Of a DNA stretch of 49,338 nucleotides, positions 18,001 to 24,000 are shown piece after piece. Source of the DNA: a virus (lineage: Duplodnaviria > Heunggongvirae > Uroviricota > Caudoviricetes); the IMG/VR virus record IMGVR_UViG_2721755725_000012, one strand, 5' to 3'. Within the stretch, counting starts at the first letter, position 1. Each line of letters starts with the position of its first letter. A program made the position numbers.

Positions 18001-21000
18001 CGTGCGTTTTTTCATACGCCCGCCAGAGTCCGCCCAGGTGTGTGGCATACGTGCCCCGGGGAAAGGATTTTTGATCGTCAATGGCGGGGATTATTTCCAG
18101 TGCCGTGGCATCACGCCCGTCCTGCGGAGCCGGCAGGGCTCTCACCGCATCCAGAACAGCCTTCTGCAGAACATCGGGATCATAGTCACGACCATCACGC
18201 GGAACAGGAATATGGCTTACCGCCTCTTTCACCATCTGTTCAAGCATCGGACGCACATCATCGGGGGTAATACTTTTGCCGTCCGCCGGTACCGGAATAT
18301 TCGCGACCGCATCATTCACCGCCTTCTGCAGTACTTCCGGATCGTAATCACGACCGTCACGCGGAACAGGGATATGGCTTACCGCCTCTTTCACCATCTG
18401 CTCAAGCATCGGACGCACATCATCGGGGGTAATACTTTTGCCGTCCGCCGGTACCGGAATATTCGCAACCGCATCATTCACCGCCTGCTTCAGTACTTCC
18501 GGATCATAATCACGACCGTCACGCGGAGCAGGGATATGGCTTACAGCCTCTTTCACCATCTGCTCAAGCATCGGACGCACATCATCGGGGGTGATACTTT
18601 TGCCGTCCGCCGGTACCGGAATATTCGCAACCGCATCATTCACCGCCTGCTTCAGTACTTCCGGATCATAATCACGACCGTCACGCGGAGCAGGGATATG
18701 GCTTACAGCCTCTTTCACCATCTGCTCAAGCATCGGACGCACATCATCGGGGGTGATACTTTTGCCGTCCGCCGGTACCGGAATATTCGCAACCGCATCA
18801 TTCACCGCCTGCTGCAGTACATCCGGATCATAATCACGACCATCACGCGGTACCGGAATGGTCCCCACAGCGTCATCCACCATCGCCTGCAGAACCGGAT
18901 GTACCTCATCCACCGTCACATGCTTCTGTAATACCGCCGACAGGGAAGCCAGTTTCTCTTCAAACGCTTGTGCCTGCGAGGCCATCTTCCCCTCAAATGT
19001 GCGCTGTAAATCCGCCAGCACCGTGGAGAATTCTTCACCCAGCGCACGGATAATGGACAGTTCCCGTTCCGTCATTTTCGCAGTATCCCCCTGAACATCG
19101 CCTTCACCGCATCACGCTCTGTTTCGCTTATGGCCTTATTACCGTCAGACGCGCCCTCCTGGCGTGTGCCTGACGACGTTTTCCCGGAAGACGCGAACGG
19201 ATCCTCACGGGCATCACGACGGGACAGCGCCTCCAGACTGTAGTTCTGCTGCTGAAGATACAGTGCATCACCGCCGGCAAGGGGCGGCAGGTTCTCACGT
19301 TTACGGGCCTCATTGGGCGTGAGAAGCGTATTTTTCACCGATTCACCCAGCGTTTTCATGCGACGTTCGCTGTCCATTCTCAGCAGCGTGGTGACGTCAA
19401 ACTCCGTGCTCTCGTTTTCCCCTGTTTCCAGCGCCTCATCCAGTAACAGTTCAATGGACTCAATCAGCGTCTGCAGGCACTGGGAATAATACTGCTGCTC
19501 CAGCGCCTCCACGTTGTCACTGGAAGGCGGTTGTCCCACGCCAATCTTGTAGGCCGGGACACGGAACACCGAACAGACAATTTCAGCGGTCATCTTCAGT
19601 TGTTCCACCGTCTGCGCATCCACAGGTGAAAACGTCGTGGGGTTGTATTTTGCCCCGTTGCTCAGAATGGCCGTTTTCCCCGCATTTTCGCCTGTATACC
19701 CGCTGTCCCAGTTGCTCTTCAGTTTTTTCGCATTTTCTTCCGTTATACTGCCGGGGATCTCAATCACCCCGGACGGCCTGCCGCCATTTCTGAAAAAAGA
19801 CGTCGAATTTTCCTGAATATGATGCCCCTGCGTGGCCGCCAGCCCGGCGGCATACACCGGCGGCAGCCCCACAAGCGGATGAAAAAAACAGTTAAACCGG
19901 TCGTGGATCACTTCCCGGGCAGGCACCGTCACCGCCTCCGTGATCCCGCAGTTCCGGTCCGGCGTGATGCGGTAGAACACCTCGCCGTCATCCGCCACCA
20001 GAGGTTCAACCCGGCTCCAGTCCAGAATACGCAGTTCTTTGATCTGCCCCCGGGCATTACGGATTTTCAGCACCACCGTATTGCCATGACGCAGTTTGGC
20101 GTTCAGCCACAGTTCAAAAAACTGGATGCGGTTCTGCTGGGCGTTGGGACGACGACAGAGGCGGGCAATATCCCCCCGGCGCGTTTCCCTGCGTATCCCA
20201 TGCGCATCCGTCTGCATAAGACGCAGCCGCATTTTGGCGATATCCTGGGATATCAGCGAAATACATGCAAACACCGCATGAAAGGAGAGGACGGCTTCAG
20301 GATCGGCTTTCACGCCCTGCTGCCAGGCGCCGGAAAAGGGCTCAGCCACCGCCTGAAACAGGCTGGTCCAGCCCGCCTCTCTTACGTCACGTCCTGATTT
20401 CTGGTTTTTTCGGGTTCGCCGTAAAAGGTTCCACATTCGCCATGCTCCGCATCACGTTTCTTTTTCTGACCTGCCGGACGTCGCACCGTGATGTACTCCG
20501 CCTTCCCCAGGCGAACCAGCACCTCCGCACACGGCTGTGCCACATCACGGATATCCCCGGCCCGGGCATCATGCGTGCCCTGCAGATATCGGATCTTTGC
20601 CATAACCTGTTACGGGAGGCGCACGCCTCCCGTCCTCCTTATCAGACTCAGCCGCCGGACGCACTGCCGTAGTTCACTCCGGTGATCACCGCCACCGCCG
20701 CAGTACGGCGACGACGCCAGTTGATCCAGCGCTCCGCACGGATGGCCACGCTGCCTGTCTGGAACATGGAAACCAGCTCCACCGGGGACGGCGTGGTACT
20801 GTCGCCGGTCGGTTCAGACTGCATCTCCAGTGACGCTTCACGGGACATATCCACCGCCACACCGCCGTCATCAGCCAGATAAATATCCGGCGCATTCACC
20901 AGCACCAGCTGGTCACCCACGTACTGGGAGACAATCACCGGCAGCCCCTGGAAGGAGCCACCCAGCAGGGTCATGTCCGGGTATTCCTTCTGACCCAGCG

Positions 21001-24000
21001 CATTTTTACGCATGGACAGTGCCAGGGCATTGGTGCTGGACATCAGCCAGACCGCACCGGTGGGCTGCAGGTTTGCTGCCACAAACTGTCCAAACGCCGC
21101 CTCTGCATCCGCATCCGGGTTACCGGTTGATGCCGTGCCCTTCACATCATGGGTGATGGACGCCGGGGAGACATCTGCCACTGCGGCTTTTTTCGGGTCC
21201 ACAAAGTCTGTATCCAGACGCGCCACCACCGCTTCCGCCAGCGCATTACGGACCAGTGCATCAGCAGCCGGACTGGAAAAACGGATCAATTCTTCCGTCA
21301 GTACCGCAATGGCCGACACTTTCGCATGACTGAAGGTGATGGATTCAAAATCAAACTTCGTCAGGGGTTTTGCCTTACCCTCACCCACCCAGCCGGCAGC
21401 ACCGCCGGACACCTGGGCGTGCACACGGATATTGAACGGCACCTGACGAAGTGCAGGGATCCCGCCCTGACCAAATCGCCCGATAATGGTCTGCGGACGC
21501 AGGTAATCAATAAAGTCCTGTGCGTATTCCTGATATTCAGACAGGCTGCCTGCCCACTGCGGATCCGTGGTGGTCCCCGCGCCCACTGCCGATTTCAGGA
21601 CATGATGCAGACGACTGTCATCCGGATACTGACGACGGGCCACTTCCAGGGCTTCAGATCGGACGCCTTTAGCCGCAGCCAGCGATTTGGCAAAGCGGGC
21701 GAAGCCAATCCCCTTCTCCAGTTTCTGCTCCACACGGATCACCGGCGCAGAAGCCACCGCGGCCACATTCCCGTTACCGGCCTGTTTCACCGGCTGCGCC
21801 GTGGCGGCCTTACCGGCTTCCAGTTCACGCAGGCGCTTCAGGTGCGCATCCACCTGACGGATTTCCGCTGCGGTGTTGTCGTAGTGCTCTTCCTCCTCCA
21901 CATCCAGCGTGCGCCCTTCCTCTGCGGCTTTGGTCATGACCTCCTCAAGGGAGGCTGCCAGCGCTGCACGCTTGTTTTCAAAACTTTTAATCTGTTCGCC
22001 AATATTCATTATGGTCTTTTCCTTATGAAAAACGGTTGTTGACTGTGCCGCAGCGCCGGCAGAAGATGCGATTTTCACCACCGGTTTCCGGTTGCCGGAC
22101 GCGGCAGAAAACGGGCGGTCGTAAGATTTAATGGTCCGGATGGTGCATTCCGCATTCGCGGGCACGGTGACGGCAGACACCTCCATCAGTTCCCAGCGCA
22201 GAAAATGCAGTCCGCCTCCGTCCAGAAAGGTGTATTCATGGGGACGGAAGCCCACGGACAGCCCCCTGACCAGCCCGGTCTTAATGGCCGCCCAGACCTC
22301 ATCCAGCCGGGCAGCCAGTTGCGACGGCATATCCGGTACGGGCTTCACCAGTGTTGCCGTGATTTCCAGCCCTTCCCTGACCCGGCGCACCGTACACTGC
22401 CCCACCGGGCGGGAATGGTCATGCTGCCAGAGAAACGGTATCGCACTGCCAAACTCCGCGCCCTCCGGCTCCAGGATGTCACCATCCCGATCCGGAGAAG
22501 GCGTTGACGCAATCCCGGTGATCACCCGTTCATCCTCACTGAAGGATTTCACCGTCAGCAGGGAACAGGCCCGTTTAAGAGTCACATCAGCCTCCTGAAA
22601 ATAAAAAAACCGCCGGAGCGGTTCGTGATGGTTACAGGGTGAGCAGGGTTATATGAAAAAAACCGCATATTCTTTCTTTTTCGGTTCCGGGTTAAGGGAC
22701 ATCAGGGAGACCGCATTGAACAGCGCCATCAGCGGGTCAATTTTTCCCCGTCCGCTGGCCTGTTTGGTGATAAGAATGGCGTTACCTTTAGGCTCCACCC
22801 GGGCATTACCGACACACCAGGCCATCAGGGGCTGATCACCGTGAATCAGCACCCCTTCAGCCAGTTTGCGCTCGGTGGTTTTGATGGCCCCGCCCAGCTT
22901 CCAGCCCTGGCTTATCCCCACCACACTCTCATCGGGGATCCCGGCTTCCGCCAGTGAATCCAGAATCTGCCCCACACCTGACGGGTCAATACCGATATGA
23001 TCCAGTAACTCAGCCTCATGAATACGACGCACATACTCCGCCACTTCCGCCGTGTCATCCCCGACCCGACGGACAATCGTCATGTCTCCACAGGCCACAA
23101 AATCCTGAAACCGGGATGCCTCACTCTTCCGTCTGACCACCGCGGTTTCATGCACCCAGGCATGGCCCCAGCCCAGCCATTCGCGGGTTTCCCTGTCACG
23201 GCCAGTCACGTACATTCCCAGCAGATCATCCAGGCCCCCGCCGTCAATCCCCACCGTCACCACATCAGCGCGCTGCAGGATATCGTCCAGGCTGACGCGC
23301 CTGCCCTGCTGCTCCCAGAAATCCGCCCCTGCCCAGCGGTCAGAACGCAGGGCAAGACCGATTTCCACATTGGCGTGTTTTGACATGAAACCGCGGAAAG
23401 TCTCTTCCCCGGCTTCCCGGGCTTTACGATACTCCCGGTACAGAAAGGCCTCATCCACCGAATAACCGAGATTCGGGTTAACCATGGCGAGGTTTTCCAT
23501 CAGCAGGTGCTCACCGCTCTCCACCATTTCAGGAGGATGCTCAAAAATCACCGGCAGAAAGTGCGGATCATGAATTTTGCCGTCACGGACATCCCGGGCG
23601 TACTGCAGTTTCTGCCTGAACACCCCGGCAGGCGGTTCATTCGACTGGGTGGTTGTGTACACCACAAACCCTTCCGGACGTGAAGCCAGCCCGCCGATGG
23701 CTTCACGTAACATGTCCTCCGCTTTGTACTGCTTGCCAAACAGCCACAGTTCATCAATCAGTGTCCCCACGGACTTGATACCGGACACCGTATTCGGATC
23801 GGCTGCCACCACCTTCAGGGTGGTGTCCGTCACCCGATGGGTGATGGTCCGGATATGTGTCTGCACCTGACAGAGGTCATCCAGATCATCGTCCCGTCGT
23901 ACCATATCCCTGGCAGGGTTGAAGGCGTTAGCCGCCACCTCCACGGTCGGGGCCAGAATGGTGTAGCCCGCCGCCTGCCGCCAGTTCAGTAACAGCGCCG

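What the first reader, a model, noticed from the sequence alone, without database searches (positions are those of the whole stretch)
19072..22585. Prohead protease fused to major capsid protein, with portal gene placed after the capsid gene
One 645-aa ORF has a prohead-protease N-terminal domain, a coiled-coil linker and a capsid-like C-terminal domain. The portal-like gene lies downstream of it rather than between terminase and protease as in HK97. A 73-codon ORF (20382-20603) of doubtful reality separates them.
Basis: partly seen in the sequence, partly recalled or inferred. Interest (0 to 1): 0.4.

Follow-up and report, generated by a model that had tools for sequence, protein, structure and literature searches.

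The report
Known protease–capsid polyprotein head module
This is the ordinary, already annotated head-assembly block of a lambda-like E. coli prophage, in which the capsid-maturation protease, scaffold and capsid protein are made as one polyprotein and the portal gene follows it; the layout is real but is shared by a large, known phage family.

Summary
On the minus strand, 20648-22585 encodes a 645-aa protein. It has an HK97-type prohead protease domain, a disordered linker, a two-helix scaffold ("delta-like") domain and an HK97-fold capsid domain. An intact HK97-family portal gene (19072-20436) lies downstream.

The 73-codon ORF between them is a real gene. It is conserved in the same position from E. 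coli to Snodgrassella.

None of this is new. The DNA is 100% identical to E. coli SD134209, and about 23% of complete E. coli genomes carry the block. It occurs in phages 2851, BP-4795, JLK-2012 and many Stx phages, annotated "major head protein/prohead protease". The protein is 49% identical over its full length to the "prohead protease fused capsid protein" of Pseudomonas phage PAJU2, for which autocatalytic cleavage was proposed in 2009. The order TerL, (protease)MCP, small ORF, portal is a lineage trait, and it is also found where protease and capsid are separate genes.

Additions from this work:
- The ancestral capsid start codon (Met193) and a Shine-Dalgarno-like motif are retained inside the fusion in about 90% of diverse relatives. 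This suggests a nested second product.
- RefSeq calls the portal a frameshifted pseudogene, but outgroups show the two-ORF state is ancestral.
- Conserved hairpins bracket the capsid gene.

The parts
22649..24310 (-). Terminase large subunit gene (context; upstream neighbour of the fusion gene)
   Evidence: Pfam TerL_ATPase and TerL_nuclease. PHROG terminase large subunit. RefSeq annotation.
22597..22624 (-). Terminator-like GC stem (22607-22624) plus U-run between TerL and the capsid gene. It is followed by the AGGAGG Shine-Dalgarno at 22591-22596.
   Evidence: Found by the pattern scan. The same stem, U-run and SD are present in Enterobacterales, Marinobacter and Snodgrassella relatives and in phage PAJU2. 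Function is inferred only.
20648..22585 (-). 645-aa capsid polyprotein gene: protease, tether, scaffold and HK97-fold capsid protein
   Evidence: It is 49% identical over its full length to PAJU2 ORF003, annotated 'prohead protease fused capsid protein'.
22121..22537 (-). Prohead protease domain (residues 17-155). Candidate catalytic residues are His55 and Ser110, with Glu135 and Ser137 also nearly invariant.
22010..22120 (-). Disordered, sequence-variable tether (residues 156-192). It contains the AAGGA Shine-Dalgarno-like motif at 22020-22024.
   Evidence: pLDDT below 50 for residues 156-189. The alignment columns are variable and gapped. Motif read from the sequence.
22007..22009 (-). In-frame ATG of Met193. 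This is the ancestral capsid-gene start and a candidate internal initiation codon.
   Evidence: Separate capsid genes and MCP-only representatives begin exactly here. 24 of 25 loci keep ATG, GTG or TTG with an SD-like motif 8-11 nt upstream. 115 of 128 diverse fusions keep Met here.
21800..22009 (-). Helical scaffold ('delta-like') domain, residues 193-262
   Evidence: Two helices, 195-223 and 229-262, at pLDDT above 95. The TIGR01554 capsid profile begins at residue 204.
20666..21709 (-). HK97-fold capsid domain, residues 293-640
20612..20640 (-). AAGGAGGA (20633-20640) overlapping by one base a 9-bp GC hairpin (20612-20633), just after the capsid stop. The orf73 ATG lies 8 nt downstream of the hairpin.
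   Evidence: Read from the sequence and folded. The same GGAGG, hairpin and ATG layout, with four different stem sequences, occurs in 20 relatives, some with a U-run. The orf73 ATG has no adjacent SD.
20382..20603 (-). orf73: a conserved small gene of unknown function, with a ~40-aa core and a basic tail
   Evidence: PHROG 829, E 4e-39. A syntenic orthologue is present in 20 loci, including Snodgrassella. Codon-position differences are 0.38/0.34/0.59. Three members of the orf73 alignment weakly match DUF7210. The structure model was poor.
19072..20436 (-). HK97-family portal gene, intact, 454 aa. GGAG lies at 20445-20448.
   Evidence: PDB matches via the 2851 portal ORF. Its C-terminus '...AMFRGILRK*' with an ATGA stop/start overlap matches the relatives' '...AMLRGLLTK*'.
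19087..19091 (-). G5 run near the portal 3' end. A G6 allele fuses the portal to the next ORF, giving the 859-aa 'portal' of phage 2851.
   Evidence: In IMG/VR, 57 contigs carry G5 and 41 carry G6. Four flanking haplotypes carry both alleles.
17690..19075 (-). 461-aa repeat protein (probable fibre) downstream of the portal. It contains a 162-nt x 4.3 tandem array at 18159-18850.
   Evidence: It is conserved between the portal and the head-tail adaptor in relatives.

Best explanation
The region is the head-assembly core of a lambdoid, long-tailed (phage 2851 / Pankowvirus-like) E. coli prophage. One gene encodes a capsid polyprotein: an HK97-type (assemblin-fold) serine protease, a flexible tether, a helical scaffold domain and an HK97-fold major capsid protein.

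Shown here:
- the domain identities and folds;
- the conserved candidate catalytic His55 and Ser110;
- that the fusion joins what are adjacent protease and capsid genes in relatives;
- that TerL, (protease)MCP, small ORF, portal, repeat protein, adaptor is the conserved order of the whole lineage.

Inferred from HK97, lambda and herpesvirus precedent:
- The capsid part co-assembles on the portal into a prohead and carries the protease inside as a covalent passenger.
- Once enclosed, the protease removes itself, the tether and the scaffold domain, leaving a mature capsid protein of roughly 350-380 residues.

Inferred from sequence conservation, my estimate about 0.55:
- Ribosomes also start at the retained internal ATG (Met193).
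- The gene would then yield abundant scaffold-capsid protein plus a smaller amount of protease-tagged subunit, much as lambda C/Nu3 or herpesvirus UL26/UL26.5 do.

The portal and the small ORF lie behind a conserved hairpin after the capsid stop. That position would fit their much lower copy number, but this is speculative.
For: - Domains and folds.
- Fusion conserved: all close homologues are 644-648 aa with both domains. 127 of the 150 best representatives are full length; 1192 hits fall below E 1e-30.
- Catalytic candidates: H55 and S110 are each kept in 127 of 128 homologues.
- Separate genes in the same order: Snodgrassella L027/L028 and Burkholderia phage vB_SBP39.
- Synteny across 27 loci, from Enterobacterales to Alphaproteobacteria.
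- Same module in isolated phages: 2851, BP-4795, JLK-2012, PAJU2.
- PAJU2 ORF003 is recorded as a virion structural protein and 'prohead protease fused capsid protein'. Autocatalytic cleavage was proposed for it, as cited in PMC8306868.
- Internal start: MCP-only homologues begin at Met193. 24 of 25 loci keep ATG, GTG or TTG there with AAGGA or GGAGGG 8-11 nt upstream. 115 of 128 diverse fusions keep Met there, against a Met frequency of 0.5% in the tether. PAJU2 has CAGGAGGG before its Met197.
- Hairpins.
Against: - No protein-level data for this prophage exist in what I could reach. Cleavage sites, the products made and protease activity are all untested.
- In the window alone the internal SD is modest. 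Its predicted pairing energy is -6.2 kcal/mol, ranking 7th of 52 in-frame start-like codons.
- Lys, Glu and Gly codons in a tether are purine-rich anyway, which could produce an SD-like motif by composition.
- One relative (L025) has no start codon at the site.
- The protease domain scores below NCBIfam's equivalog cut-off (46.3 against 59).
- The prophage carries IS1203 insertions and a frameshifted antirepressor, so the module may never be expressed from this copy.
Confidence: 0.85

Rival explanations
1. Obligate 1:1 polyprotein. Only the full-length 645-aa product is made, so every capsid subunit brings in its own protease. The conserved Met193 would be a structural or cleavage-site residue, or a relic, and not a start codon.
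For: - There is a strong SD only at the 5' GTG (AGGAGG, -10.3 kcal/mol). The internal site is average for this gene.
- Protease-capsid fusions in small actinophage genomes are described simply as single genes (PMC5513430 and PMC9671004).
- My rough volume estimate, which is not a tool result, puts 415 copies of the extra ~190 residues within a T=7 prohead interior.
Against: - Met is kept in 115 of 128 divergent fusions in an otherwise unconserved, disordered tether.
- In L019 and L021 the codon at this position is the alternative start codon GTG or TTG.
- SD-like motifs persist at fixed spacing although the encoded residues differ, and they are strong (-10.8 kcal/mol, top 0.5% of positions) in Hydrocarboniphaga, Marinobacter and PAJU2.
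Confidence: 0.4
2. The portal is a frameshifted pseudogene, as RefSeq annotates it. On this reading the functional gene is the 859-915-aa portal-plus-repeat ORF seen in phage 2851, and this prophage's head module is dead.
For: - PGAP marks 18812-20436 and 17690-18763 as frameshifted or partial portal pseudogenes.
- Phage 2851, an isolated phage (GenBank record FM180578), has one 859-aa ORF, because of G6 instead of G5.
- PHROG 2271 is an 859-position profile.
- Many E. coli database entries are fused forms.
Against: - 23 of the 25 distinct related loci (E. coli excluded) in which a portal ORF was found have a separate ~450-aa portal. In Enterobacterales these end in '...RG(L/I)L(T/R)K*' with an ATGA overlap onto a separate downstream ORF, exactly as in the window.
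- The full Pfam and TIGR portal profiles are covered within the 454 aa.
- G5 sits on more, and more diverse, flanking haplotypes than G6.
- The fused form is therefore the derived state.
Confidence: 0.08
3. The single 645-aa frame is an artefact or recent accident (a lost stop codon or an assembly error) that joined separate protease and capsid genes.
For: Relatives with two separate genes exist.
Against: - The frame is identical in 1244 complete E. coli genomes.
- It is conserved at 38-78% identity across proteobacterial hosts and metagenomes.
- The tether is maintained in frame although its sequence is variable.
Confidence: 0.01

Closest known systems
Pseudomonas phage PAJU2 ORF003, 'prohead protease fused capsid protein' (UniProt P85500 'capsid polyprotein', as cited in PMC8306868; Uchiyama et al. 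2009)
   Same: - 49% identity over the whole length.
- Same module order: TerL, polyprotein, small ORFs, portal, repeat-protein homologue, adaptor.
- Same hairpin before and after the gene, and the same internal Met with an SD.
   Different: - Different host and phage genus (Detrevirus).
- PAJU2 has an extra membrane-protein ORF before the portal, and its small ORF is longer (114 aa).
- PAJU2's product is recorded as a virion structural protein. Nothing is measured for the E. coli copy.
Head modules of phage 2851 (Pankowvirus), BP-4795, JLK-2012, long-tailed Stx1/Stx2c phages and Sakai prophages Sp6/9/10/12
   Same: - 95-99% DNA identity over the 8 kb that include this region.
- Annotated 'major head protein/prohead protease'.
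- Asadulghani 2009 (PMC2669165) already notes that Sp6, 9, 10 and 12 have a head-gene organisation different from lambda.
   Different: - Many of them carry the G6 allele, which fuses the portal to the repeat protein.
- Repeat number differs.
- This prophage lacks stx and carries nleC.
HK97 gp3 (portal), gp4 (protease), gp5 (delta domain + capsid protein)
   Same: - Same protein families for all three.
- Scaffold domain fused to the capsid protein.
   Different: - In HK97 the order is portal, protease, MCP, and the protease is a separate protein recruited non-covalently (established knowledge).
- Here the portal follows the MCP and the protease is covalently attached.
- Whether HK97-type cross-linking residues exist was not tested.
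Actinobacteriophage 'capsid and protease fusion' genes (Arthrobacter clusters AM/AU/AN, Microbacterium cluster EE, Rhodococcus RRH1)
   Same: Same idea of protease and capsid in one gene. It is described as recurrent, and 'common in small-genome siphoviruses' (PMC5513430, PMC9671004, PMC6606914).
   Different: - An independent lineage: NCBIfam NF045541 scores only 55 bits against a cut-off of 525.
- Their portal precedes the fusion gene.
Nested in-frame protease/scaffold genes: lambda C/Nu3 and herpesvirus UL26/UL26.5
   Same: If Met193 is used, one reading frame would give a long protease-bearing form and a short abundant assembly form. The N-terminal domain also has the assemblin fold.
   Different: - There the short product is a scaffold only. 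Here it would be scaffold plus capsid protein.
- The internal start is inferred here and has not been demonstrated.

Membership tests
HK97-type prohead serine protease (MEROPS S78; Pfam PF04586; TIGR01543) | Match to the family profile above its curated threshold | tested here: met
   Pfam 34.9 bits against a cut-off of 21. However, the stricter NCBIfam equivalog TIGR01543 gives 46.3 bits against 59, which is below its cut-off.
HK97-type prohead serine protease (MEROPS S78; Pfam PF04586; TIGR01543) | Conserved catalytic His and Ser (HK97 gp4 His65/Ser114; numbering from memory) on an assemblin-like fold | tested here: met
HK97-type prohead serine protease (MEROPS S78; Pfam PF04586; TIGR01543) | Proteolytic removal of the scaffold domain after assembly | not testable with these tools
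   Needs protein work.
HK97-fold major capsid protein with N-terminal delta/scaffold domain (PF05065; TIGR01554) | Profile match above threshold, and HK97 fold | tested here: met
HK97-fold major capsid protein with N-terminal delta/scaffold domain (PF05065; TIGR01554) | Helical N-terminal assembly domain preceding the fold | tested here: met
   Predicted helices 195-223 and 229-262, pLDDT above 95. This is a prediction only.
HK97-fold major capsid protein with N-terminal delta/scaffold domain (PF05065; TIGR01554) | Lys-Asn isopeptide cross-link residues, as in HK97 | not tested
   No residue-level superposition on HK97 gp5 was made.
HK97-family portal (PF04860; TIGR01537) | Full-length profile match and homology to solved portals | tested here: met
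   272.8 bits against 39.1, covering profile positions 2-321 of 321. 352 bits against 112. The near-identical 2851 portal ORF matches PDB 9lbn and 8cez at E 1e-28 and 4e-20 over residues 43-420.
PAJU2-type capsid polyprotein lineage (PHROG 617) | End-to-end similarity, including both domains and the tether position | tested here: met
   PHROG 617: residues 1-639 match profile positions 7-626 of 626, E 1e-261. 49% identity to PAJU2 ORF003 over 672 columns.
NCBIfam NF045541 'prohead protease/major capsid protein fusion protein' | Score at or above the family cut-off | tested here: not met
   55 bits against a cut-off of 525, with only residues 48-289 matched. Same architecture, different lineage.
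Nested in-frame assembly genes (lambda C/Nu3 type) | Conserved internal start codon with a ribosome-binding site | tested here: inconclusive
   The start codon and an SD-like motif are conserved across lineages, but the site is unexceptional in the window itself.
Nested in-frame assembly genes (lambda C/Nu3 type) | Two polypeptides produced from one frame | not testable with these tools
   Needs proteomics or ribosome profiling.

The most novel reading that the evidence does not exclude
The fusion gene is really a nested pair. Ribosomes would start both at the GTG (22585) and at the retained ancestral capsid start, ATG193 (22009). Proheads would then be built mostly from scaffold-capsid subunits, with a minority of subunits carrying a covalently tethered protease. 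On this reading the protease dose and its encapsidation are set by the ratio of two start sites, not by a docking peptide, and this strategy would be shared by hundreds of phage lineages. Relatives with an AAA ATPase in front of the protease hint that the same device may load cargo.
Probability: 0.5. Interest if true: 0.35.

Novelty: already known. Interest (0 to 1): 0.15.

Why it matters
It matters little as a discovery. The gene, its fused architecture and its position are already in public annotation for more than a thousand E. coli genomes and several isolated phages, and a homologous polyprotein was described for PAJU2 in 2009.

It has some practical value.
- It shows that RefSeq's "frameshifted portal pseudogene" call for this common EHEC prophage module is probably reference bias. 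That affects judgements about which prophages are intact.
- It provides a clean, testable case for how protease stoichiometry is set in protease-scaffold-capsid polyproteins.

Tried and rejected
- **Missing-stop artefact:** rejected on conservation.
- **Portal pseudogene, as PGAP annotates it:** rejected as the more likely reading after comparing 27 related loci.
- **Structure of orf73:** the AlphaFold model was poor (pLDDT 57.6) because only near-identical E. coli homologues could be supplied. No fold search was attempted.
- **Profile of orf73 against PDB:** only a chance-level hit.
- **Consensus fold of the post-capsid hairpin:** it failed because MAFFT misaligned stems of different sequence. 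I rely on the individual folds instead.
- **G5 versus G6 count in E. coli genomes:** the second query was mis-placed, upstream of the G run, so searches are uninformative on that point. Exact-pattern scans of IMG/VR replaced them.
- **Literature:**
  - Searches for experimental work on protease-capsid fusions gave only genome announcements and the Arthrobacter phage paper.
  - The phage 2851 paper is not held.
  - The PAJU2 paper was reachable only through a citing paper.
- **CBASS escape paper:** it concerns a protease-scaffold fusion, not a capsid fusion.

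
Full report
**What is there**

All genes in this part of the window run on the minus strand. In order they are:

| Gene | Coordinates |
|---|---|
| HNH endonuclease | 25161-25526 |
| TerS | 24307-24870 |
| TerL | 22649-24310 |
| 645-aa ORF | 20648-22585 |
| 73-codon ORF (orf73) | 20382-20603 |
| 454-aa ORF | 19072-20436 |
| 461-aa repeat-rich ORF | 17690-19075 |
| Head-tail adaptor, head closure, gp10-like, tail terminator, major tail protein | further downstream |

The window is 100% identical to a prophage of E. coli SD134209. That prophage is lambdoid, lacks stx, has two IS1203 insertions and carries nleC at one end.

**The 645-aa protein**

- Pfam places Peptidase_S78 at residues 48-152 and Phage_capsid at residues 386-635, both above the gathering scores.
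- PHROG 617 matches end to end, E 1e-261.
- NCBIfam's HK97 capsid model starts at residue 204.
- An AlphaFold model built on 126 diverse homologues has mean pLDDT 86.7. It shows:
  - a compact domain at 17-155;
  - an unstructured stretch at 156-189;
  - two long helices at 195-223 and 229-262;
  - an HK97 fold at 293-640.
- Foldseek gives Bxb1 and HK97 capsids at E 1e-14 to 1e-10.
- His55, Ser110, Glu135 and Ser137 are kept in 126-127 of 128 diverse homologues. This fits an active His/Ser protease.

**Not an artefact**

- The same single frame occurs in 1244 of 5426 complete E. coli genomes.
- It occurs at 74-78% identity in Salmonella, Enterobacter, Klebsiella, Serratia and Pantoea, always at 644-648 aa.
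- It accounts for 127 of the 150 best 50%-identity cluster representatives. That search returned 12,494 hits in all, 1192 of them below E 1e-30.

**Origin of the fusion**

In Snodgrassella alvi and in Burkholderia phage vB_SBP39, the protease and capsid protein are adjacent separate genes in the same module. The separate capsid genes, and the MCP-only representatives, begin exactly at the position of Met193 of the window protein. The "coiled-coil linker" is therefore a variable tether followed by the capsid protein's own N-terminal scaffold domain.

**Gene order**

TerL, (protease)MCP, small ORF, portal, repeat protein, adaptor is conserved in 27 loci. These span Enterobacterales, Hydrocarboniphaga, Marinobacter, Chelativorans, Hyphomicrobiales, Caulobacteraceae and Snodgrassella. 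The same order is found in the isolated phages 2851, PAJU2 and vB_SBP39. A portal placed after the capsid gene is thus a lineage trait, and it does not depend on the fusion.

**The portal**

The 454-aa ORF covers the whole Pfam and TIGR portal profiles. Phage 2851's 859-aa portal ORF, near-identical over its first ~450 residues, matches solved HK97-family portals over residues 43-420. RefSeq nevertheless labels it a frameshifted pseudogene.

The reason is that phage 2851 and many O157 phages have a single 859-aa ORF. The difference is a G6 run instead of the G5 run at 19087-19091.

Outside E. coli, 23 of the 25 distinct related loci in which a portal ORF was found have a separate portal of about 450 aa. 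In Enterobacterales these end "...RG(L/I)L(T/R)K*", with an ATGA overlap onto a separate downstream gene, just as in the window. The two-gene state is therefore ancestral, and the window's portal is intact.

In IMG/VR, 57 contigs have G5 and 41 have G6. Four flanking haplotypes carry both alleles. Either the run mutates recurrently or homopolymer sequencing errors are involved.

**The 73-codon ORF**

- It matches PHROG 829.
- A syntenic orthologue is present in 20 loci, out to Snodgrassella.
- It has a conserved core of about 40 aa and a basic tail.
- Substitutions show a third-codon-position excess: 0.38/0.34/0.59.
- Small ORFs with the same motif lie at the same position in most of the more distant loci. 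Three members of the orf73 alignment weakly match DUF7210.
- Only in E. coli does it run 55 nt into the portal gene.

It is a real gene of unknown function. The structure prediction failed.

**How it probably works**

By analogy with HK97, lambda and herpesviruses (established knowledge), the capsid part assembles on the portal and the protease rides inside as a covalent passenger. After enclosure the protease would remove itself, the tether and the scaffold. This was proposed for the PAJU2 homologue, which is 49% identical over its full length.

One point goes beyond the annotation. The ancestral capsid start survives inside the fusion.
- 24 of 25 loci have ATG, GTG or TTG there, with AAGGA, AAAGGA or GGAGGG 8-11 nt upstream, even though the encoded residues differ.
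- 115 of 128 diverse fusions keep a Met there, against 0.5% Met in the tether.
- PAJU2 has CAGGAGGG before its equivalent Met197.
- In the window alone, however, the site is unremarkable: -6.2 kcal/mol, 7th of 52 in-frame start-like codons.

I rate internal initiation at about 0.5-0.55.

**Flanking signals**

A terminator-like stem plus U-run lies between TerL and the capsid gene (22597-22624). A GGAGG motif followed by a GC hairpin lies between the capsid stop and the orf73 ATG (20612-20640). Both are conserved across relatives, the second with different stem sequences. The orf73 ATG has no adjacent SD. A split ribosome-binding site or an attenuator after the capsid gene is plausible but untested.

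**Prior knowledge**

- The module is annotated "major head protein/prohead protease" in phages deposited from 2003 onward.
- Asadulghani 2009 notes the non-lambda head-gene order in Sakai Sp6/9/10/12.
- PAJU2 ORF003 is annotated "prohead protease fused capsid protein".
- Protease-capsid fusions are described for actinophages.
- NCBI has a product name for such fusions.

**Verdict**

The finding is already known and of low interest.

Noticed in passing
window 19087-19091 (minus strand G run); 17690-20436: A G5/G6 length polymorphism decides whether the portal and the 461-aa repeat protein are two genes (this window) or one 859-aa ORF (phage 2851). Both alleles are common (57 against 41 IMG/VR contigs), and four identical flanking haplotypes carry both. 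RefSeq's 'frameshifted portal' label here appears to be reference bias.
   Followed up: partly
window 17690-19075; tandem array 18159-18850: The 461-aa protein has a coiled-coil N-terminus, 4.3 copies of a 54-aa repeat (162 nt, 96% identical) and a conserved C-terminal domain of about 100 aa with a weak CBM_5_12-like motif. Relatives vary in repeat number (194-556 aa), and two of them (L025, L030) have collagen-like GXY runs instead. It is probably a trimeric fibre encoded next to the portal. It is mis-named 'portal protein' in databases.
   Followed up: partly
window 22597-22624: A canonical-looking intrinsic terminator (7-bp GC stem plus U-run) sits directly upstream of the capsid gene's strong SD. 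It is conserved in Enterobacterales, Marinobacter and Snodgrassella relatives and in phage PAJU2. A terminator just before the most highly needed structural gene is odd. It may be an RNA-stability or translational-enhancer element.
   Followed up: partly
window 20601-20640: orf73 has no SD next to its ATG. Instead, a conserved GGAGG lies 5' of a stable hairpin whose stem sequence differs between lineages (four versions), and some relatives add a U-run. This looks like a split ribosome-binding site, an attenuator after the capsid gene, or both.
   Followed up: partly
L133 3047-6331 (soil metagenome contig ERZ1758404:JX_forest_Scaff15045562); proteins P0123, P0132: Two independent relatives of the polyprotein carry an extra N-terminal ~440 aa with a classic AAA ATPase domain (PF00004) in front of protease-scaffold-capsid. 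P0123 was traced to a contig with the same TerL, polyprotein, small ORF, portal module; the genomic context of P0132 was not examined. This may be a way to load a cargo enzyme into the prohead.
   Followed up: partly
L030 9021-9359; L027/L028 about 9090-9455: The orf73 orthologue of a Marinobacter prophage ends in an E3_binding (peripheral subunit-binding) domain (E 3e-14). The Snodgrassella versions contain an expanding Asp-Ala repeat (67 against 121 aa).
   Followed up: no
window about 29200-49338 and 1-1000 (from the RefSeq annotation of the identical record): Prophage context: tRNA-Ile/Arg are followed directly by the nanS-p esterase with no stx genes. There are two IS1203 copies (one splitting a YdaT-family gene), a frameshifted antirepressor, RelE/RelB and Hok modules, and the type III effector gene nleC at the tail-fibre end.
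   Followed up: no
protein P0001 (1079 aa, one contig): One database entry joins a TerL ATPase domain to the protease-capsid protein in a single ORF at 100% identity to the window. It is most likely an assembly or deletion artefact.
   Followed up: no
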